Source: a phage
Sequence record: PZ445529.1
Strand: one strand, 5' to 3'
DNA: 43,663 bases
Positions 12,723-43,663 of this stretch are shown piece after piece. Under the pieces are notes generated by a model that worked only from the letters and a program-made list of their open reading frames with translations, was not told the origin of the DNA and searched no databases. The position numbers and the translations under genes are program-made. Positions within the stretch are counted from its first letter, which is position 1; each line of letters begins with the position of its first letter.

Positions 12723-12727
12723 ATTGG

Positions 12728-12756
12728 TTGCATAACCATATTGGTTGCATTATATT
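12728..12756 (+). promoter_or_regulatory. sigma70-like promoter (-35 TTGCAT, 17-bp spacer, -10 TATATT) built on two direct ATTGGTTGCAT copies
   Basis: aaattggttgcataaccatattggttgcattatatt; contains TGGTT-gcat-AACCA inverted repeat. Confidence 0.5.
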
Positions 12757-14187: not shown

Positions 14188-14654
14188 AATTACTGATTTG
14201 CGATTTGGATGGCGTTATTAATGGTTCAAGCGATGCGCGTGCCGACCTGGTGCCGGGGATAAAAACGAAATCAACCTTTTGGGCAAAGTGGCACAAAGCG
14301 CATGTACGCGAAGACCTGAACATGGATATGCTGCCGCTGTTGCGCATGTACAAAGAGCAAGGCTTCGAGATCGCGTATCTGACCAACCGGCAGCTAGAAT
14401 GCTGGGAGACTACCGCCGAGCAACTGGAGGTATTCCCGGCAGGCCGGTTGTTTATGCGCCACATGCTGGACGACACCCCGCCGCCAGAGTTTAAGGCGTG
14501 CGCTGTGTTCAAAATGGTCTGCTATGCAGACGTGTCTGAACTTGTCATCATTGAGGACTGCGAGAAGAACATCGCGGCAATTCGTCGGGCGTGCGGCGAT
14601 TTGGTCCCGAAAATTTACGCAATAAACGTTGCAAAATTCACTTGCAACCAATAG
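14184..14654 (+). CDS. HAD-superfamily hydrolase (nucleotidase/phosphatase-like)
   Basis: 156 aa; motif I LICDLDGVI (DxDG). Confidence 0.55.
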   Translation: MKLLICDLDGVINGSSDARADLVPGIKTKSTFWAKWHKAHVREDLNMDMLPLLRMYKEQGFEIAYLTNRQLECWETTAEQLEVFPAGRLFMRHMLDDTPPPEFKACAVFKMVCYADVSELVIIEDCEKNIAAIRRACGDLVPKIYAINVAKFTCNQ

Positions 14655-14660
14655 GTTGGT
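14632..14660 (+). promoter_or_regulatory. promoter-like element with perfect palindrome TGCAACCAA-tagg-TTGGTTGCA
   Basis: cttgcaaccaataggttggttgcattatag; -35 TTGCAA, 17-bp spacer, -10-like TTATAG. Confidence 0.45.
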
Positions 14661-14717
14661 TGCATTATAGTTAACGCGTCGGGGGGCAATACGGCCTCCC
14701 ATAAAAAGGACCACATA

Positions 14718-15820: not shown

Positions 15821-17389
15821 TTATTTACCTTCCAGCTTTTCCACTTTCCGCAACAGGTGAACGAAGGCGGCACACAGATCCATCAACAGCACGTTACTAT
15901 CTAGTGACAGCACATCGTCCGTATACCCGATTTCCTTTCGGTCGACTACAACTTCGTTGCCTTCCTCGTCCACCCCCTTGATATCCTCATAAATGGCATA
16001 ACCCGGCAGCAAGTGCACATATTCTGGGTCAATCCTTGCCAGATCCTGTGCGATAAGGCCGTATCGCTGTACGTCAGACTCCTTATACTTGAACATTGCC
16101 GGAAGCCATTGACGAACGCGGTTGTAGCTTTCCTCGCCGTCAGTGTATTGGATTTCTTTTTTAAGGTCGCGGTCCGATAGCGCCGCTTTCTGGAACTCGT
16201 TAACCGAAGGGTTGCTGCTGTTACCACTAATCAGCCTGCCGTCCGGTAGGAAGCGGAATAAAGCCTCCGCATAACCATCCTTCCACACGTGGACACGGTA
16301 GTCCGATAAGTGGGCATCGCCGCCCCTGACCAAGCCAGATCGTGTCCAATCCGTGTACCACTTATGCATCGTCTGCCCGACCCAGCTATCCATCCCGAAA
16401 GACGCGTTTGATATAATCAAACCGTTTCTTTCGACATCATTGAAGGTTAGCGATTCGCCTCCGTTCAGACGTAATGTTGCGTGTTTAACGATACTATCAT
16501 CACCAACGCCAAGATTAGCGCGTGCCGCCGATTTATCTGCGACGTCTGCCAGGTTCTGCGACTTCTTCATGAATTGCGTAGGGTCGATCGCGTTTTTGAA
16601 GTCTTCGGCTTCGTCCCGATACCCCTGCGCGGCATCGCGGGCGGCTTGCGCGTCCCTCTTCGCTGTATTGGCCTGATCTCGAATAACGCCGGTGTCAGTC
16701 TTGATCTGGTTCGTCTGCGTCTTGATGGCCTGCGTATCCGTCTTGATCTGGTTCGTCTGCGTCTTGATGGCCTGCGTATCCGTCTTGATCTGGTTCGTCT
16801 GCGTCTTGATGGCCTGCGTATCAGTTTTGATCTGGTTCGTCTGCGTCTTGATGGTATTGGTGGCGTCGCGAATACCCGCCGTCTCGGTCTTGAAGCCTTC
16901 TGCCTCATTGCGAAATCCTTGCGCGGCTGCTTCCGATGCGGCGGCTTGTTGTTGCAGGTCGCGCATTTCCACTGGGTCGATCTGTTTCATCAACTGCGAC
17001 AGATAGCCCCATGACATACCCTGCATGACTTGCCCGTTCGGCAGCGTTACGGTGATTTCTTCAGCGTCGCCGAAGATTGCACGCCAGTTGTTTTCATCGG
17101 CGATCATCAAACGAAATGCTTTCTGTGCCTGGACGGTAACGCCCATCGTAGTCAATGACATGGTGTCACGTTTGATGCCGTCCCAGGCTAGGCCGGTTGC
17201 CGTCGGGCCGTCGAACGGCAGCACCAGCGTAAGCGCCGTGTTACTTTTGATTGATGCGATCGCCACGGTGTAAGGAACTTGCCCTACCACCAGCGTTAAG
17301 AAGTCGCCAGCTTTAAACGCGGTAAACGTTGTGCCGACCCCTACTACCGCCTTGCTATTGTTCGTTACGGATAGCGTACCCGCTGCCAT
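15821..17389 (-). CDS. tail fibre with coiled repeat region and C-terminal intramolecular chaperone (peptidase S74-like) domain
   Basis: C-terminal SDRDLKKEI...YGLIAQDL...LLMDLCAAFVHLLRKVEKLEGK resembles autoproteolytic chaperone domains; start set at ATG 17389 (RBS GAGGA) rather than 17416. Confidence 0.65.
   Translation of the reverse strand: MAAGTLSVTNNSKAVVGVGTTFTAFKAGDFLTLVVGQVPYTVAIASIKSNTALTLVLPFDGPTATGLAWDGIKRDTMSLTTMGVTVQAQKAFRLMIADENNWRAIFGDAEEITVTLPNGQVMQGMSWGYLSQLMKQIDPVEMRDLQQQAAASEAAAQGFRNEAEGFKTETAGIRDATNTIKTQTNQIKTDTQAIKTQTNQIKTDTQAIKTQTNQIKTDTQAIKTQTNQIKTDTGVIRDQANTAKRDAQAARDAAQGYRDEAEDFKNAIDPTQFMKKSQNLADVADKSAARANLGVGDDSIVKHATLRLNGGESLTFNDVERNGLIISNASFGMDSWVGQTMHKWYTDWTRSGLVRGGDAHLSDYRVHVWKDGYAEALFRFLPDGRLISGNSSNPSVNEFQKAALSDRDLKKEIQYTDGEESYNRVRQWLPAMFKYKESDVQRYGLIAQDLARIDPEYVHLLPGYAIYEDIKGVDEEGNEVVVDRKEIGYTDDVLSLDSNVLLMDLCAAFVHLLRKVEKLEGK
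16698..16865. repeat. in-frame 42-bp tandem repeat (about 4 copies, 21-bp sub-period) encoding TDTQAIKTQTNQIK heptad repeats
   Basis: Unit gtcttgatctggttcgtctgcgtcttgatggcctgcgtatcc repeated head-to-tail. Confidence 0.85.
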
Positions 17390-17410
17390 AGCTAAATCCT
17401 CGTAAATTGG

Positions 17411-17439
17411 TTGCAATCCAGGTTGAGCGGTGTAATACT
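17411..17439 (+). promoter_or_regulatory. promoter-like element with ATTGGTTGCAA motif (-35 TTGCAA, -10-like TAATAC) upstream of the lipoprotein gene
   Basis: cgtaaattggttgcaatccaggttgagcggtgtaatact. Confidence 0.4.
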
Positions 17440-24277: not shown

Positions 24278-24912
24278 CTTACGAATCCGATAGCTGTCTT
24301 AAGGGTGACGGACACCGTTGCCGTGTTATGCCCGTTGTCAGTGTACGACAAGCTCGAACGCTCGACCACGAATAAACCTGTTTCGCCATCCGGCGCGGTG
24401 ACGACAAACGGCTTGACGAAGTGCCCGCGAAGGAAGTTGTAAACCAGTTTGGGGTCGCACCACTTGTCAGTAGTCAGTCCGATGAATTGCACGGGGAACT
24501 GTTTCGTTTCGGCGTTCGGGCCGTCCGCGATGTTCTGACCGTAACCGTTACCGAATTGCAATTCCTCGGACCGGAAAGACAACTGCACGTCTCCGCCGCC
24601 TTGCAATTGCATATGCCAGTAATAGGGCCATTCGTTTGACCGCGGGTCGTGCGCTTCGATTAGCTCATAAACCACACCGGCTTTTGTCGGTCCTGCCCAG
24701 TTATCCGCCAGGGTGATGACGGTGTTAGAGTTGAATGCCGCAATTTTTCCGGTGTAGTCGTTGCCGTCGATGCGGGTAAATACGCGGACCTTCCCGATCT
24801 CGCTCAAGAACGCCGTTCCCGCGCCCGTTACGGTCTTACTTCCTTTCGTTAGTGTGATTGTACCTTGCGCCATAAAAAAGCCCCCACGTTGTAGTGAGGG
24901 CCATTTTATCAT
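24274..24912 (-). CDS. minor tail protein (lambda M-like)
   Basis: 212 aa; start overlaps tape measure stop (ATGA). Confidence 0.6.
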   Translation of the reverse strand: MIKWPSLQRGGFFMAQGTITLTKGSKTVTGAGTAFLSEIGKVRVFTRIDGNDYTGKIAAFNSNTVITLADNWAGPTKAGVVYELIEAHDPRSNEWPYYWHMQLQGGGDVQLSFRSEELQFGNGYGQNIADGPNAETKQFPVQFIGLTTDKWCDPKLVYNFLRGHFVKPFVVTAPDGETGLFVVERSSLSYTDNGHNTATVSVTLKTAIGFVR

Positions 24913-27551: not shown

Positions 27552-27618
27552 TATGCAGTCCCCTTTTTATGCAGTTGCCGATTGTCATTGTATCAGCGAT
27601 TTTAAAACAATCCTTATT

Positions 27619-27787
27619 CAGTCTCAGACGAGGGGGGCCACTGACCCCCGTCTAGTCTGAAAGACTGGGGTGCTGTCCCGCTGTCCCGATCGGCTAAACC
27701 CCGCGGCAGCACTGGTGGGGACGGGGTGCTGTCCCGCTTTGTCCCGCCCCTTGTTTGTCCCGCTTTTTGTCCCGCTTAGTTTATGCA
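27619..27787. repeat. copy B of the 169-bp element (palindrome + GTCCCG iterons), in the gap between the GT chaperone stop and the tape measure start
   Basis: Exact match to 43616-43663 + 1-121; followed at 27826-27857 by extra inverted GGGACA/GTCCCG copies (gggacaaaacgggacgtcccgatctgtcccgc). Confidence 0.9.
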
Positions 27788-27856
27788 ATAAATTCGAATA
27801 GGTATGCACATTTCAGGGGTGGGACAAAACGGGACGTCCCGATCTGTCCCGCTGCA

Positions 27857-28545: not shown

Positions 28546-28572
28546 CAATAAAAAAGGGGCCGTGCTGGCCCC
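28546..28572 (-). terminator. Rho-independent terminator after the major tail protein gene
   Basis: ggggcc-agcac-ggcccc followed by TTTTTTATT on the minus strand. Confidence 0.65.
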
Positions 28573-33297: not shown

Positions 33298-33387
33298 GCT
33301 ATCCCCCTGGGATTGTGGCAGAGCAGGCCACCCGCTCGACTTCACGCTTCTAATATTATCAGCGATAAAAATAATCGCAAAATTCGC

Positions 33388-33416
33388 TTGCAATCCTCAT
33401 ATTGGTTGCATATATT
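33388..33416 (+). promoter_or_regulatory. sigma70-like promoter (-35 TTGCAA, 17-bp spacer, -10 TATATT) with two ATTGGTTGCA copies
   Basis: cttgcaatcctcatattggttgcatatattggttgcacaccaaca; the 21-mer tatattggttgcacaccaaca recurs on the minus strand at 43413-43433. Confidence 0.55.
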
Positions 33417-33445
33417 GGTTGCACACCAACAACGAGGACACACTA

Positions 33446-40628: not shown

Positions 40629-40658
40629 AGTGTAATACTCCTCTTGTTGATTGGTCGC

Positions 40659-40688
40659 AGTATGGCGTCTATGTTGGTTGCAAGTCAA
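40659..40688 (-). promoter_or_regulatory. sigma70-like promoter (-35 TTGACT, 18-bp spacer, -10 CATACT) with TGCAACCAA motif at the -35
   Basis: Reverse complement of 40659-40688; sits just after the terminator that follows the Ig-like gene. Confidence 0.4.
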
Positions 40689-40690
40689 GC

Positions 40691-40718
40691 AATAAAAAGC
40701 CCGGAATTAACCGGGCTT
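40691..40718 (-). terminator. Rho-independent terminator after the Ig-like gene
   Basis: aagcccgg-ttaatt-ccgggctt followed by TTTTTATT on the minus strand. Confidence 0.7.
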
Positions 40719-41154: not shown

Positions 41155-41646
41155 TTATGCTGCGTTACGTCCGATCTTCTCGGCAACGTCCCACTGCTTA
41201 CCATCGAATAGCGCCTGCCTGCCGATTGCTCGACGGACTAACCCCTTCAGCACTTCCCCACCTTGCTTGCGGAATTGTGGCAGTATAGCCCGCACCTTTG
41301 CCCAGTCGCCCCGGCGGATCGCATCGTCGAAATCACCGGCTACGTCGTCCGGCATGATCGGACCAGGACCGGCATTGATTACCAGGTCCACCAGCGCGTC
41401 GAATTGCGCCTGATTGATGCTCGGGTGTGCGTACTTGTTCACCCAGTTCTCGGCATATGCCACATCGCGCTTGAGTAGCTCCAGTGCTTCCGCACGGGTA
41501 ATGCTTCGTGGCGGAGTAGTGCCAGTGTGCCCATAACCCCAGGTGTACAGGCCGCGGGCCTGCTCTTTCTTGGTCGCGAAATACGGCACCGGGCTGAAAG
41601 CCTCCCATGCTGCCGTAAATCGTAGACCGTTATCACTGAATCGCAT
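41155..41646 (-). CDS. endolysin (T4-lysozyme-like muramidase)
   Basis: 163 aa; N-terminal EAFSPVPY and TWGYGHT motifs. Confidence 0.75.
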   Translation of the reverse strand: MRFSDNGLRFTAAWEAFSPVPYFATKKEQARGLYTWGYGHTGTTPPRSITRAEALELLKRDVAYAENWVNKYAHPSINQAQFDALVDLVINAGPGPIMPDDVAGDFDDAIRRGDWAKVRAILPQFRKQGGEVLKGLVRRAIGRQALFDGKQWDVAEKIGRNAA

Positions 41647-41878
41647 GTTTTACCCCATTCAAAACAGCATTACGCAGCGTGCGCAATGCAAACAGCCAGA
41701 TTAACGCGGTCCAGGTGGTATCTGATACGTCTCCCGTTTGCAACAGCCCGACAATACAGGTCATTGCTGTTAGCAGATATAACACCCGACCGAAGAAGCC
41801 ATCCTGAACGGACGGCGCATACACGTTAAACAGGGACGAAGCCCCTATGATAACAAACAACAGGACGGAGATAATCAT
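41633..41878 (-). CDS. second membrane protein of the lysis cassette (holin/antiholin-like)
   Basis: 81 aa MIISVLLFVIIGASSLF...; ATG overlaps holin stop (ATGA). Confidence 0.5.
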   Translation of the reverse strand: MIISVLLFVIIGASSLFNVYAPSVQDGFFGRVLYLLTAMTCIVGLLQTGDVSDTTWTALIWLFALRTLRNAVLNGVKHAIQ

Positions 41879-42165
41879 TTTGCGCCCCCCGGAAGGTGTA
41901 GCGTCGCAATTGTCTCCCGGATCCGGTCGGCGATTGGCATCCAGAAGATGGCAGTTACGAAGCCCAAACCGGCGACAGTGCGCTCGCCAGACAAACCAGA
42001 CCACTCGGCAATAGCTGGCGCACCAAATATGGCACACAGGAAGCCAACTACGACATATAAAACGAAGTTCAACGGCCCTTTCGTTGCCTCGCCGTGAATG
42101 CGTGCGCCCACGAAGCCACCAGCAAGACACGCAAGGGCGAATAACCACTCGTTTAGCTTATCCAT
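41875..42165 (-). CDS. holin (three predicted TM segments, charged C-terminus)
   Basis: 96 aa; hydrophobic segments WLFALACLAGGFVGA, FVLYVVVGFLCAIFGAPAIA, VAGLGFVTAIFWMPI; immediately upstream of endolysin. Confidence 0.6.
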   Translation of the reverse strand: MDKLNEWLFALACLAGGFVGARIHGEATKGPLNFVLYVVVGFLCAIFGAPAIAEWSGLSGERTVAGLGFVTAIFWMPIADRIRETIATLHLPGGAK

Positions 42166-42200
42166 AAAAAAGTCCCAGTAAGTTTTAGCTCACTGGGACT
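42166..42200 (-). terminator. intrinsic terminator (9-bp stem, 12-nt loop, TTTTTT) abutting the holin start codon
   Basis: Minus strand agtcccagt-gagctaaaactt-actgggact-tttttt-ATG. Confidence 0.6.
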
Positions 42201-42217
42201 ATATCACGCTTGCGTAA

Positions 42218-42391
42218 TTAATCGAAAATGGACCACTTACCGACGCCTTTCCATTCCCACCCTTCCGATCGGACGGCCTCGAACATCCTGCCCCCTATCA
42301 TATCCCGATACCATAGCCACCACATGCGCAACCTGGTAGGGTGCTCCGTGATACCACGGCGCTTGTATACCTCGAACGTCATGCGGGCCAT
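42218..42391 (-). CDS. hypothetical small protein (57 aa)
   Basis: ATG-initiated ORF overlapping upstream ORF end; no clear RBS. Confidence 0.3.
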   Translation of the reverse strand: MARMTFEVYKRRGITEHPTRLRMWWLWYRDMIGGRMFEAVRSEGWEWKGVGKWSIFD

Positions 42392-42480
42392 ACGACGAAC
42401 ATCAGGATGCCAAACAGCACCGCGGTAAGCAGGCACAGCCCGCAGATCAAACCAAACCAATAAATCACATCATGAATCAT
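42379..42480 (-). CDS. small hydrophobic peptide (33 aa)
   Basis: Hand-translated MIHDVIYWFGLICGLCLLTAVLFGILMFVVWPA; overlaps neighbours by about 12 nt. Confidence 0.3.
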   Translation of the reverse strand: MIHDVIYWFGLICGLCLLTAVLFGILMFVVWPA

Positions 42481-42595
42481 AATCTGCCCCATAGGTATTT
42501 AGCCAGACTACCGCGAAGACGTATAGCATCGAATTGCCCCTACCGCCTATCTCAAAGCGGTTGTGCATCAGCATATCACGGATAGCCACACTCAT
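42470..42595 (-). CDS. hypothetical small protein (41 aa)
   Basis: Hand-translated ORF; stop overlaps next start. Confidence 0.25.
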   Translation of the reverse strand: MSVAIRDMLMHNRFEIGGRGNSMLYVFAVVWLNTYGADYDS

Positions 42596-42626
42596 TTCAG
42601 AATCACCGAGCGCGGGTCAATGGCGT

Positions 42627-42818
42627 TCATGCTGCCGTCACGGCATCAAAGCGATTGACTATCTCATGCGTGACAATATCGTATTTCTCCGGCAGCTTTG
42701 CCTTACTCGCCCACCAGACACGATCGCTTGCGGCGTGGTGCAAGCGGACGTGTGCCGCAAGGGTCTGTATTGGCCTCAGGATTTTGCCATCTGCTTTACG
42801 GCGGAATAGTAATTTCAT
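42627..42818 (-). CDS. hypothetical protein (63 aa)
   Basis: ORF; start overlaps upstream stop. Confidence 0.45.
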   Translation of the reverse strand: MKLLFRRKADGKILRPIQTLAAHVRLHHAASDRVWWASKAKLPEKYDIVTHEIVNRFDAVTAA

Positions 42819-43084
42819 TTGCTCAGTCTCCAGTGTTTGCCTACCCGCTCAACGGCGGGCTTCCGGCGTAATGTAATACGGATCCCCATTGGTTGCAAGG
42901 AGGTCCGCACCCTGAAATCGTGTTGTGCTGCGAACTGGTGCAAGTAGCGAGTCTGCGTCAACGGCTTTACGTCGTCGCGATAGCACCAGAATACAGATTC
43001 ACCCTCAACCGCATTCTCAGCCCATATTCGTATGCAATGCAGGGGAATATGCCACGAAAGCTGTTTGGCGCGCCTACGGCTCAT
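42815..43084 (-). CDS. hypothetical basic protein (89 aa)
   Basis: ORF 10 nt after upstream stop. Confidence 0.45.
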   Translation of the reverse strand: MSRRRAKQLSWHIPLHCIRIWAENAVEGESVFWCYRDDVKPLTQTRYLHQFAAQHDFRVRTSLQPMGIRITLRRKPAVERVGKHWRLSK

Positions 43085-43093
43085 TTTGGCCCC

Positions 43094-43399
43094 TTATTTC
43101 GCAAGCTGGGCGAATAGTTCGCGCTGGGCTTTAATCCGGGCGACGTTTGTCACTGCCGTCTCACCGATCCCGAAGCGATACGCCAGGCGCTCACGGGCAA
43201 ATGCCTTGGCATATTCGTGAATTGCCATACGCAACGGCTTCAGGTCATCCAGGCTGGCGTCCATGCGGTAGAGCGCGTCACGAATTGATTGGTGCGCCAG
43301 TACCGCAATCTGCAGCGCCTGGTCTACGTTGCCGTTCAGTGCTTTCGCTTCTTCCAGCTTTGCCACGGCCAGGGTGTAATTCCAGATAATTGCTTTCAT
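43094..43399 (-). CDS. hypothetical protein (101 aa), first gene of the minus-strand operon leading into the lysis cassette
   Basis: ATG with RBS AGGA; promoter immediately upstream. Confidence 0.5.
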   Translation of the reverse strand: MKAIIWNYTLAVAKLEEAKALNGNVDQALQIAVLAHQSIRDALYRMDASLDDLKPLRMAIHEYAKAFARERLAYRFGIGETAVTNVARIKAQRELFAQLAK

Positions 43400-43427: not shown

Positions 43428-43456
43428 AATATAGCAAGGTGCCAGGCCGGATGCAA
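43428..43456 (-). promoter_or_regulatory. sigma70-like promoter (-35 TTGCAT, 17-bp spacer, -10 TATATT) with two ATTGGTTGCA copies
   Basis: Reverse complement gives ttgcat-ccggcctggcaccttgc-tatatt; shares an identical 21-mer with the promoter at 33388-33416. Confidence 0.55.
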
Positions 43457-43552: not shown

Positions 43553-43615
43553 TAGTTCCGCGACGACCGCAATCCGCAACATGCTGCCGTGTATTTTGCA
43601 ATCCAGGATTTTATG

Positions 43616-43663
43616 CAGTCTCAGACGAGGGGGGCCACTGACCCCCGTCTAGTCTGAAAGACT
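43616..43663. repeat. 5' part of copy A of the 169-bp element (imperfect GC-rich palindrome cagtctcagacgaggggggccactgacccccgtctagtctgaaagact)
   Basis: 43616-43663 is identical to 27619-27666; window end joins window start seamlessly as in copy B. Confidence 0.9.

What the first reader, a model, noticed from the sequence alone, without database searches (positions are those of the whole stretch)
42166..42200. Strong intrinsic terminator placed directly against the holin start codon
On the minus strand a 9-bp stem (agtcccagt/actgggact), 12-nt loop and six T residues end immediately before the holin ATG, leaving no room for a promoter and burying the weak GGGA Shine-Dalgarno in the stem. Holin, endolysin and perhaps the whole late block would then depend on read-through from the upstream small-gene operon (43399-42218). 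That is the logic of lambda Q or HK022 put-type antitermination, or a translational gate on lysis timing. One of the six small unknown proteins upstream could be the antiterminator.
Basis: partly seen in the sequence, partly recalled or inferred. Interest (0 to 1): 0.58.

Follow-up and report, generated by a model that had tools for sequence, protein, structure and literature searches.

The report
Terminator hairpin guarding a phage holin gene
A strong, conserved transcription terminator really does sit directly against the lysis (holin) gene of this HK578-like E. coli phage, but it most likely shields the lysis genes from early transcription while a small promoter at its foot makes hairpin-free lysis mRNA, so no lambda-style antiterminator is needed.

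Summary
The window is a Dhillonvirus, an HK578-like virulent siphovirus. On the minus strand, a hairpin at 42200-42171 (12 bp including one G-U, 6-nt loop, -19.4 kcal/mol, z = -7) is followed by U5-6 and then the holin ATG at 42165. The weak GGGA Shine-Dalgarno lies in the 3' arm. The stem is invariant in 46 Dhillonvirus loci and is kept by compensating changes in a clade whose holin is 70% identical. Guernseyvirinae phages (holin 46% identical) have a hairpin at the same position that buries the ribosome site but lacks a clean U-run.

- "No room for a promoter" is wrong. An extended -10 element, TGATATAGT (42206-42198), overlaps the 5' foot of the hairpin. Its key bases (TGnTATnnT) are conserved in both phage groups.
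- A start near G42191 would give a leader without the 5' arm, so no terminator forms and the ribosome site is free.
- The same promoter type (TGnTATATT) is invariant upstream of a nearby gene.
- The next two transcription units downstream have their own promoter-like sites right after the next two terminators.
- No Q, N or put-like component was found.

Best reading (about 0.5): an insulating terminator plus ribosome-site occlusion, with a nested promoter. Rivals are a leaky attenuator (0.28) and factor-dependent antitermination (0.12). No step is experimentally tested.

The parts
42171..42200 (-). Terminator hairpin. The 5' arm is 42200-42189, the loop CTAAAA is 42188-42183, and the 3' arm is 42182-42171. 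It has 12 bp including one G-U.
   Evidence: -19.4 kcal/mol, z = -7.0. Invariant stem in 46 relatives and a compensated variant in the LM40P1 clade.
42166..42170 (-). U-tract of the terminator: 5 unpaired U, or 6 counting the closing U42171. It also serves as the spacer between the Shine-Dalgarno-like GGGA and the start codon.
   Evidence: The length is 6-7 T in all relatives.
42173..42176 (-). GGGA, a weak Shine-Dalgarno-like element inside the 3' arm, 7 nt before the ATG.
   Evidence: Sequence. It is paired in every fold that contains the 5' arm.
42198..42206 (-). Candidate extended -10 promoter element TGATATAGT. TG is 42206-42205 and the hexamer TATAGT is 42203-42198. The last three bases are the first three bases of the hairpin.
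   Evidence: The only TGNTATAGT in the window. One of 17 extended -10 matches with at most one mismatch. Rank 35 of 87,254 in a weight-matrix scan. Invariant in all Dhillonvirus loci, and TGnTATnnT is invariant across Dhillonvirus and Guernseyvirinae with n = A, G or C. Function is inferred, not shown.
42190..42191 (-). Predicted transcription start (G42191 or A42190, 7-8 nt after the -10 hexamer), inside the 5' arm. The resulting 26-nt leader lacks nine of the twelve 5'-arm bases.
   Evidence: Geometry of sigma-70 promoters (established knowledge). The leader from 42191 folds at 0 kcal/mol. Inferred only.
41875..42165 (-). Holin gene, 96 aa, first gene of the lysis cassette. Its ATG is 42165-42163.
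   Evidence: phrog_2359 holin, E = 1e-30. Annotated as holin in HK578 and relatives.
41633..41878 (-). Second holin-like gene, 81 aa. Its start overlaps the holin stop (ATGA).
   Evidence: phrog_2508 holin, E = 8e-28.
41155..41646 (-). Endolysin (phage lysozyme). It overlaps the end of the second holin gene.
   Evidence: Pfam PF00959, E = 6e-21.
40697..40718 (.). Bidirectional terminator that closes the lysis and Ig-protein unit. It is followed on the minus strand by the promoter-like site TTGACT-18-CATACT (40688-40659).
   Evidence: There is a two-sided compensatory change (GCCCGG/CCGGGC to GCCCGC/GCGGGC) in LM40P1.
42218..43399 (-). Upstream small-gene operon of six small ORFs (101, 89, 63, 41, 37 and 55 aa). 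The hairpin terminates its transcripts. The stop codon TAA at 42220-42218 lies 17 nt before the hairpin.
   Evidence: Only the 101-aa and 89-aa ORFs are found in every relative that was compared.
43428..43456 (-). Sigma-70-type promoter of the small-gene operon: TTGCAT, 17-nt spacer, TGCTATATT. It is flanked by two ATTGGTTGCA motifs.
   Evidence: Sequence. Rank 7 of 87,254. Motif enrichment.

Best explanation
The element is an insulator between an upstream small-gene operon and the lysis cassette.

1. Transcripts from the strong sigma-70 promoter at 43456-43428 run through the small genes. They meet a canonical intrinsic terminator (12-bp hairpin plus U-tract) 17 nt after the last stop codon, and most of them end there.
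2. Any RNA that reads through still carries the hairpin. The hairpin buries the weak Shine-Dalgarno, and with the flanking CGUGA/UUAUG pairing it also buries the start codon. The holin is therefore poorly translated from such RNA. This is the logic known as fold-back inhibition in IS10 and IS50.
3. The lysis cassette is expressed mainly from its own promoter, an extended -10 element TGATATAGT with a poor -35, which overlaps the 5' foot of the hairpin.
4. Transcription should start near G42191, inside the 5' arm. This mRNA therefore lacks the 5' arm, cannot form the terminator, and has an unstructured 26-nt leader with a free ribosome site. The unit ends at the bidirectional terminator at 40718-40697.

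Shown here: the structure, its conservation, the burial of the ribosome site, and the presence and conservation of the promoter-like motif. Inferred: that termination occurs, that the motif is an active promoter, where transcription starts, and the timing.
For: Terminator:
- Strong hairpin plus U-run.
- Invariant stem, with a compensated variant in the LM40P1 clade.
- It sits at the 3' end of a promoter-headed operon.

Ribosome-site occlusion:
- GGGA lies in the 3' arm.
- Guernseyvirinae, with a holin 46% identical, keep a hairpin ATCCTCCAG/CTGGAGGAT at the same place in 84 loci. It buries GGAGGA 5-6 nt before the start codon.

Nested promoter:
- TGATATAGT is unique in the window and ranks in the top 0.04% of a sigma-70 weight-matrix scan.
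- The bases conserved across both clades are C-G-T-G-n-T-A-T-n-n-T-C. These are the TG and -10 positions 1, 2, 3 and 6. The free 'n' position varies between A, G and C.
- In LM40P1 the -7 T is retained although its pairing partner changed.
- The same element type, TG(G/A)TATATT, is invariant upstream of the metallophosphatase gene in 15 loci with at least four different upstream contexts. In three of them it directly follows a terminator, and it survives deletion of an intervening ORF in LM40P1.
- Six of the 17 extended -10 matches lie in sense-strand intergenic positions of the late strand.
- The leader predicted from G42191 is unstructured.
- In both clades the conserved block upstream of the holin continues unchanged when the upstream genes differ.

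The fold-back inhibition comparison with IS10 (Davis, Simons and Kleckner 1985) is from my own knowledge.
Against: - There is no experimental start-site or 3'-end data for any Dhillonvirus or Guernseyvirinae phage in the searchable literature.
- The -35 is poor: TCGATT, 3 of 6.
- At weight-matrix rank 35 the site scores no better than several probably spurious intragenic hits.
- In Guernseyvirinae the hexamer is only TATCCT, and five of its six bases are also constrained by pairing with the Shine-Dalgarno.
- CGUGA could be conserved for pairing with UUAUG rather than as a promoter.
- A promoter read by unmodified host polymerase gives no obvious late timing for a holin.
- Two of the three other 'extended -10 next to a hairpin' cases can be explained by stop codons or A-tracts.
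Confidence: 0.5

Rival explanations
1. Leaky terminator acting as an attenuator, with no dedicated promoter and no dedicated factor. The lysis genes are transcribed only by the minority of polymerases that pass the terminator on their own. The hairpin further damps translation. Together these keep holin synthesis low, so the lethal threshold is reached late. The conserved TGATATAGT is conserved for another reason, such as RNA pairing with the start codon.
For: - Hairpin-U6 elements sit between late genes elsewhere on this strand with no canonical -35/-10 promoter behind them: after the major capsid gene (31382-31363), after the major tail gene (28572-28556) and after the tape-measure gene (24902-24879, also directly against an ATG). 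Read-through therefore seems to be normal in this genome.
- The weak Shine-Dalgarno and its burial fit a design for low expression.
- CGUGA/UUAUG pairing offers another reason for conservation of the flank.
- Partial read-through of intrinsic terminators in phage late operons, such as T7 T-phi, is established knowledge.
Against: - A 12-bp, -19.4 kcal/mol hairpin with a 6-7 U tract, plus burial of the ribosome site, would leave very little expression of genes the phage cannot do without.
- It does not explain why TG, T-12, A-11 and T-7 are the conserved bases in two clades while the 'n' position varies.
- It does not explain why the same TGnTATATT element is invariant upstream of the metallophosphatase gene, where there is no hairpin.
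Confidence: 0.28
2. One reading: factor-dependent processive antitermination. A phage product, either a protein from the small-gene operon or a cis-acting RNA, makes RNA polymerase resistant to this terminator and to the other terminators on the late strand. Lysis and late genes are then switched on, as with lambda Q or HK022 put.
For: - The terminator is strong and abuts the first lysis gene, as tR' precedes S in lambda (established knowledge).
- At least five intrinsic terminators interrupt the late strand, which a processive mechanism would explain neatly.
- The 89-aa and 101-aa ORFs are present in every Dhillonvirus compared and have no known function.
- The 89-aa protein has basic termini (MSRRRAK......RRKP...GKHWRLSK).
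- A 195-nt repeat with a GC-rich hairpin lies upstream of two terminator-containing units. It is untested.
Against: - There is no Q, N or Nun-like family hit for any small ORF in Pfam or PHROGs.
- Rfam gives no hit.
- There is no boxA-like site on the relevant strand.
- The operon leader is about 22 nt, too short for a put-like RNA, and the repeated hairpin lies upstream of that promoter, not downstream.
- AlphaFold models of the 89-aa protein (pLDDT 84) and the 101-aa protein (pLDDT 90.6, four-helix bundle) have no significant PDB fold match: best E = 0.17 and 0.56.
- Four of the six ORFs are dispensable in nature.
- None of the six small-ORF proteins gave a match in the 2.5 kb upstream of the holin in Guernseyvirinae, which share the hairpin and flank architecture.
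- The units downstream have their own promoter-like sites.
Confidence: 0.12
3. The element is chiefly an RNA 3'-end or 5'-end stability or processing element. It would protect the small-gene mRNA from 3' exonucleases or serve as an RNase III site, and its position against the holin gene would reflect only genome compaction.
For: - Terminator hairpins do stabilise upstream mRNA (established knowledge).
- The genome is tightly packed, and other hairpins also touch the next gene.
Against: - This is a by-product of any terminator rather than an alternative to it.
- It does not explain the conserved 5' flank.
- It does not explain the homologous hairpin in Guernseyvirinae that buries the Shine-Dalgarno and has no clean U-run.
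Confidence: 0.05

Closest known systems
Intrinsic (Rho-independent) terminators used as operon ends or attenuators in phage genomes, for example T7 T-phi and lambda tR'
   Same: A G+C-containing hairpin is immediately followed by a U-tract, on the sense strand at the end of a transcription unit. Like lambda tR', it lies just upstream of the lysis genes.
   Different: There is no spacer before the next gene. The U-tract is also the spacer between the Shine-Dalgarno and the AUG, and the 3' arm contains the ribosome site. No Q-type factor or qut-like promoter was found upstream. In lambda the late promoter lies upstream of the terminator, whereas here the candidate promoter is nested in the terminator itself.
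Fold-back inhibition in IS10 and IS50, which protects the transposase gene from outside read-through transcription (Davis, Simons and Kleckner 1985; from my own knowledge)
   Same: Read-through RNA from an upstream promoter contains a segment that pairs with the ribosome-binding site. RNA from the element's own promoter starts downstream of that segment and is translatable.
   Different: In this phage the hairpin is additionally a full intrinsic terminator, and the protected gene is a phage holin. The internal start site here is predicted, not mapped.
Extended -10 (TGn-TATAAT) sigma-70 promoters of E. coli, which work without a good -35
   Same: TG lies at -15/-14, and the hexamer TATAGT has T-12, A-11, T-10, A-9 and T-7. 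The -35 is poor. The same type recurs upstream of other late-strand genes.
   Different: The promoter overlaps a terminator hairpin, so transcription would begin inside it. Activity is untested.
Lambda S-gene sdi stem-loop and dual-start control of holin translation
   Same: An RNA structure at the 5' end of a holin gene modulates ribosome access.
   Different: There is no dual start: the only Met before residue 76 is the start. The hairpin here lies upstream of the AUG, and it is a terminator.

Membership tests
Intrinsic (Rho-independent) terminator | Stable G+C-containing stem-loop on the transcribed strand | tested here: met
   12 bp including 6 G-C pairs, 6-nt loop, -19.4 kcal/mol, z = -7.0.
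Intrinsic (Rho-independent) terminator | U-tract directly 3' of the stem | tested here: met
   UUUUU plus the closing U, then AU. Relatives have 6-7 T.
Intrinsic (Rho-independent) terminator | Placed at the 3' end of a transcription unit and far enough from the stop codon to fold | tested here: met
   It lies 17 nt after the TAA at 42220-42218, the stop of the last small ORF. The operon promoter is at 43456-43428.
Intrinsic (Rho-independent) terminator | Structure maintained in evolution | tested here: met
   Invariant stem in 46 loci. The LM40P1 clade keeps 12 pairs through changes on both arms. One relative has a single broken pair. Covariation is sparse because the relatives are close.
Intrinsic (Rho-independent) terminator | RNA 3' ends form at the U-tract | not testable with these tools
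   No transcript data were found for this genus.
Lambda Q-type antitermination | Q-family protein encoded upstream | tested here: not met
   No Pfam or annotated PHROG hit for the six small ORFs. Models of the 89-aa and 101-aa proteins have no PDB fold match. ORFs elsewhere in the window were not all scanned.
Lambda Q-type antitermination | Late promoter with a Q-binding element and a promoter-proximal sigma-dependent pause, upstream of the terminator | not tested
   No such element is recognisable by eye at 43456-43400, and no model was available to search with.
HK022 put-type RNA antitermination | A two-stem-loop RNA of about 70 nt transcribed just downstream of the promoter and upstream of the terminators | tested here: inconclusive
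   Rfam gave no hit, but I do not know that a put model is in Rfam. The leader from the 43428 promoter to the first ATG (43399) is about 22 nt, leaving no room. The repeated GC-rich hairpin at 43655-43617 lies upstream of that promoter.
Lambda N/nut antitermination | A boxA/boxB site in the transcript and an arginine-rich N-like protein | tested here: not met
   No boxA-like match on the minus strand between 43433 and 42200. The 89-aa protein has an RRRAK N-terminus, but it is predicted to be folded with alpha and beta elements, unlike the disordered N protein.
Extended -10 sigma-70 promoter | TG at -15/-14 and a -10 hexamer with A-11 and T-7 | tested here: met
   TGATATAGT at 42206-42198.
Extended -10 sigma-70 promoter | Conservation of the functional bases but not of the free position | tested here: met
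   TGnTATnnT is invariant in 46 Dhillonvirus and 84 Guernseyvirinae loci, with n = A, G or C. A sister element TG(G/A)TATATT is invariant in 15 loci.
Extended -10 sigma-70 promoter | A mapped transcription start 6-9 nt downstream | not testable with these tools
   Predicted at G42191 or A42190 only.
Fold-back inhibition (IS10/IS50 type) | The ribosome site pairs with a segment that lies upstream of the gene's own start site | tested here: inconclusive
   Pairing of the ribosome site is shown. Whether the 5' arm is upstream of the native start depends on the unmapped start site.

The most novel reading that the evidence does not exclude
Dhillonviruses, and at the holin also Guernseyvirinae, may run their late strand on a distinct promoter class: extended -10 with no usable -35. 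On the minus strand such sites occur at 43436, 42206, 40528, 39292, 33358, 27595 and 24911, with a weaker 4-of-6 match next to the terminator at 28572. Some are nested in or abut terminator hairpins, so each terminator-promoter pair both ends incoming transcripts and starts hairpin-free ones. The plus-strand promoter-like sites mostly rely on a TTGCAA or TTGACA -35, and several of them, like the 43456-43428 promoter, carry the repeated ATTGGTTGCA motif. The early-to-late switch could then work by blocking -35 recognition, either by a T4 AsiA-like factor or by a repressor that binds ATTGGTTGCA, rather than by antitermination. One of the small conserved proteins of unknown fold could be that factor.
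Probability: 0.15. Interest if true: 0.65.

Novelty: new member of a known kind. Interest (0 to 1): 0.36.

Why it matters
Phage lysis timing depends on how much holin is made and when. For HK578-like phages and the related Jersey and K1-type phages, which are common in phage-therapy collections, nothing is known about how lysis genes are kept quiet early.

If the reading here is right, one 45-nt element does three jobs: it terminates, it occludes the ribosome site, and it promotes. That would be a compact insulator of interest for phage engineering and synthetic biology. It also gives a simple experiment: point mutations in TG or A-11, which lie outside the stem, should separate promoter function from terminator function.

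If only the leaky-terminator reading is right, the element is an ordinary attenuator. HK578's record carries terminator annotations elsewhere but none at this spot. Either way, the lambda-style antitermination story should not be adopted without data.

Tried and rejected
Antiterminator search:
- Pfam and PHROG scans of the six small ORFs gave no functional family.
- Rfam over the whole window gave nothing.
- A boxA-like pattern search found nothing on the relevant strand.
- Homologues of the 89-aa protein are confined to Dhillonvirus. Its AlphaFold model (pLDDT 84) has no PDB match, best E = 0.17.
- I guessed a C-terminal helix-turn-helix in the 101-aa protein from a weak Pfam hit (E = 0.09). 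The model rejects this: it is a four-helix bundle with pLDDT 90.6 and no PDB match.

Literature:
- Searches for Dhillonvirus, Kagunavirus or Jerseyvirus transcript maps, HK578 terminators and cappable-seq data found nothing relevant.
- A search for a citable open-access description of IS10 fold-back inhibition also failed. That comparison rests on my own knowledge.

More distant relatives:
- Scans of viral and metagenome collections with a holin alignment returned only the same two clades plus three very distant hits that I did not analyse.
- Pantoea phage MED16 has a terminator about 60 nt before its holin-like gene, followed by TGCTATCGT. Pectobacterium phage Wc4 has none.

Ideas considered and dropped:
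- An alternative -10 in the conserved GAT(T)AATT block. It scores as a promoter only in one Guernseyvirinae context and not in Dhillonvirus.
- The three 'extended -10 abutting a hairpin' cases (42200, 28572 and 24902) as strong statistics. They are 3 of 14 terminators, and two can be explained by stop codons or A-tracts.
- Formal pair counting on the two-clade alignment. MAFFT put the arms one column out of register, so pairs were read by eye.

Full report
**What the window is.** The 2.5 kb around the finding matches 158 phage records at 80-95% identity. Nearly all are Escherichia phages of the genus Dhillonvirus, including HK578, SO-1 and YD-2008.s. The window is a circular permutation and reverse complement of the HK578 record.

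Read on the minus strand, the order is:
- helicase-primase (2480-216), then across the wrap to 43663;
- a sigma-70-type promoter, TTGCAT-17-TGCTATATT (43456-43428);
- six small ORFs (43399-42218);
- the hairpin;
- holin, a second holin-like gene, endolysin and an Ig-domain protein (42165-40725);
- a bidirectional terminator (40718-40697);
- a metallophosphatase gene (40486-39344);
- a terminator (39323-39303);
- terminase and the structural genes.

**Checking the observation.** The sequence is as described, with two corrections.
- Of the six T residues, the first closes the stem.

The hairpin alone folds at -19.4 kcal/mol, with z = -7.0 and none of 200 shuffles as stable. It is the only site in the 43.7-kb window with at least 12 uninterrupted pairs and a T-rich tail. 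GGGA lies in the 3' arm, 7 nt before the ATG. The stop codon of the last small ORF is 17 nt upstream of the stem. From general knowledge of ribosome footprints, that is far enough for the hairpin to fold behind a terminating ribosome.

**Conservation.**
- In 46 Dhillonvirus loci from IMG/VR, GenBank and metagenomes (27 distinct flanks), the stem never varies. Only two loop positions and the U-run length (6-7) do.
- In the divergent LM40P1 clade (holin 70% identical), the loop is different. The 5' arm has an extra C and the 3' arm has A changed to G, which again gives 12 pairs.
- Phage welsh has one pair-breaking change.

The structure is real and under selection.

**A homologous element in a second phage group.** The holin has homologues at about 46% identity in Guernseyvirinae (Kagunavirus, Jerseyvirus). 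In 84 such loci the holin start (TTG GAT AAA) is preceded by a hairpin, ATCCTCCAG...CTGGAGGAT. Its 3' arm is a strong Shine-Dalgarno (GGAGGA) 5-6 nt from the start. It is followed by UUCAUC rather than a clean U-run.

The roughly 75-nt block upstream of the holin stays the same when the upstream gene differs. The ancestral, shared property therefore looks like burial of the holin ribosome site. The clean U-tract that makes a canonical terminator is the Dhillonvirus form.

**The 5' flank.** Aligning the two groups shows invariant C-G-T-G-n-T-A-T-n-n-T-C at the foot of the hairpin. In the window this is TGATATAGT (42206-42198), an extended -10 promoter element: TG at -15/-14 and a hexamer with T-12, A-11, T-10, A-9 and T-7.
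- It is the only TGNTATAGT in the window.
- The position that sigma-70 does not read (n) is the one that varies: A in Dhillonvirus, G or C in Guernseyvirinae.
- In LM40P1 the T at -7 is kept even though its pairing partner changed.
- In a rough sigma-70 weight matrix, with frequencies taken from memory of published compilations, the site ranks 35th of 87,254 positions. The operon promoter at 43433 ranks 7th and the site after the 39323 terminator ranks 4th.
- At rank 35 there are also probable false positives, so the matrix alone is weak evidence.

**Independent support for this promoter class.** A sister element, TG(G/A)TATATT, lies about 35 nt upstream of the metallophosphatase gene (40528-40520).
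- It is invariant in 15 Dhillonvirus loci with at least four different upstream contexts.
- In three of these genomes it directly follows the terminator with nothing else between.
- In LM40P1 it survives deletion of the intervening small ORF.
- There is no hairpin at that site, so RNA pairing cannot explain its conservation.

Of the 17 extended -10 matches in the window (11 +/- 3 expected), six are in sense-strand intergenic positions of the minus strand: 43436, 42206, 40528, 39292, 27595 and 24911. A further one, at 33358, lies before the scaffold gene.

**Consequence of the geometry.** A start 7-8 nt after the hexamer falls at G42191 or A42190, inside the 5' arm. RNA made from there lacks nine of the twelve 5'-arm bases. 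The 26-nt leader folds at 0 kcal/mol, so neither the terminator nor the occluding structure can form.

RNA arriving from the upstream promoter contains the full hairpin. It should mostly terminate, and what reads through has its ribosome site sequestered. In the extended fold the AUG is also paired, through CGUGA/UUAUG. This is the logic of fold-back inhibition described for IS10 and IS50 (my own knowledge), combined here with a true terminator. I rate this reading at about 0.5. The structure, its conservation and the motif are shown. Termination, promoter activity, the start site and the timing are inferred.

The late block does not need read-through at 42200.
- The 40718 terminator is followed by TTGACT-18-CATACT.
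- The 39323 terminator is followed by TGTTATAAT with TTGGTG at -35.

For antitermination I found no component.
- The six small ORFs have no Pfam or annotated PHROG family.
- There is no Rfam hit and no boxA-like site.
- The operon leader is about 22 nt, too short for a put-like RNA.
- Relative L106 lacks four of the six ORFs through a microhomology deletion but keeps the hairpin and its flank.
- The two universal proteins (89 and 101 aa) are confined to this genus. Both fold confidently in AlphaFold (pLDDT 84 and 90.6) and have no significant PDB fold match.

This does not exclude a novel factor. At least five intrinsic terminators punctuate the late strand, which processive antitermination would explain. 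I keep that model at 0.12.

**The main rival.** The main rival (0.28) is a simple leaky attenuator. Hairpin-U6 elements also follow the major capsid, major tail and tape-measure genes. The last of these (24902-24879) sits directly against an ATG, so read-through seems routine in this genome. This rival does not explain the pattern of conservation in the 5' flank or the sister element.

**Literature.** No transcript-level data for these genera were found.

**Verdict.** The element is a conserved canonical terminator that HK578's annotation does not mark, and it doubles as a ribosome-site occluder. The antitermination interpretation is not supported by anything found. A nested extended -10 promoter is the best current explanation for how the lysis genes are expressed.

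Interest is moderate. The parts are all known kinds. Their overlap in a 45-nt element guarding a holin, shared by two phage taxa, is neat and can be tested directly.

Noticed in passing
window 27614-27808 and 43611-43663 plus 1-142 (across the wrap): A direct repeat of about 195 nt, 93-98% identical. It contains at least 7 CGGGACA/GGGACAG iteron-like repeats and a GC-rich imperfect hairpin (AGACTAGACGGGGGTCAGTGGCCCCCCTCGTCTGAGACT) with no U-tract. One copy lies between the tail chaperone genes and the tape-measure gene. The other lies between helicase-primase and the small-gene operon. The element is also present in HK578 (one copy read) and LM40P1 (two blast matches). It may be an origin or a regulator-binding array. 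The 15,997-nt spacing explains the many 16-17 kb assembly contigs of relatives, and probably the window ends as well.
   Followed up: partly
window, 17 sites, e.g. 43461-43452(-), 43430-43421(-), 33401-33423(+), 12723-12749(+), 14643-14664 (palindrome), 40650-40682(+): The motif ATTGGTTGCA occurs 17 times with at most 1 mismatch, against 2.9 expected. It mostly overlaps or flanks promoter-like sites of the form TTGCA(A/T)-17-TATA(T/G)T, in either orientation. It is likely a promoter-family signature or an operator for a phage regulator.
   Followed up: partly
window minus strand 43436, 42206, 40528, 39292, 33358, 27595, 24911 versus plus strand 3020, 12304, 33411, 14666, 12751, 9865: There appear to be two promoter-like classes. 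Intergenic sites on the minus strand carry an extended -10 (TGn). Most plus-strand sites have a TTGCAA or TTGACA -35 and no TG. This may reflect temporal classes.
   Followed up: partly
window 24911-24873 (-): A second 'hairpin-U6-ATG' junction, between the tape-measure gene and the next tail gene: TGATAAAAT GGCCCTCAC tacaac GTGGGGGCT TTTTT(T) ATG. The G-run of the 3' arm is the only Shine-Dalgarno-like element. It is conserved in HK578, and in LM40P1 a G-U pair becomes A-U. The true start of this gene is probably the ATG after the U-run, not the ATG at 24912 listed by the ORF finder.
   Followed up: partly
window 42492-42218 (-): The gene corresponding to HK578 gp54 (99 aa, phrog_2531) is split here into a 37-aa membrane-like ORF and a 55-aa ORF that overlap by ATGA. 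The homologue of HK578 gp52 (174 aa) is truncated to 63 aa. The small-gene region is variable among relatives, and L106 lacks four of the six ORFs.
   Followed up: partly
L020 (K1H) 2455-2500 and 84 Guernseyvirinae loci: A conserved hairpin ATCCTCCAG...CTGGAGGAT buries the holin Shine-Dalgarno GGAGGA. It is preceded by CGTG(G/C)TAT and by an A/T-rich palindrome TAGGATAATTCCTA about 27 nt upstream of the putative start. I found no published description of it.
   Followed up: partly
window 16650-16896 (+ coordinates): Seven copies of a 21/42-nt periodic repeat (GTCTGCGTCTTGATGG...) lie inside the 531-aa minus-strand ORF 15821-17416. This is probably a repeated coiled-coil or fibre segment.
   Followed up: no
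window 40626-40548 (-): A 26-aa ORF (MARNDIWVLAIWSAAAFIGMVICELL) with a good Shine-Dalgarno lies just after the TTGACT-18-CATACT promoter. It is present in HK578 and absent in LM40P1 and in genomes such as YD-2008.s. It is a hydrophobic micropeptide of unknown role.
   Followed up: no
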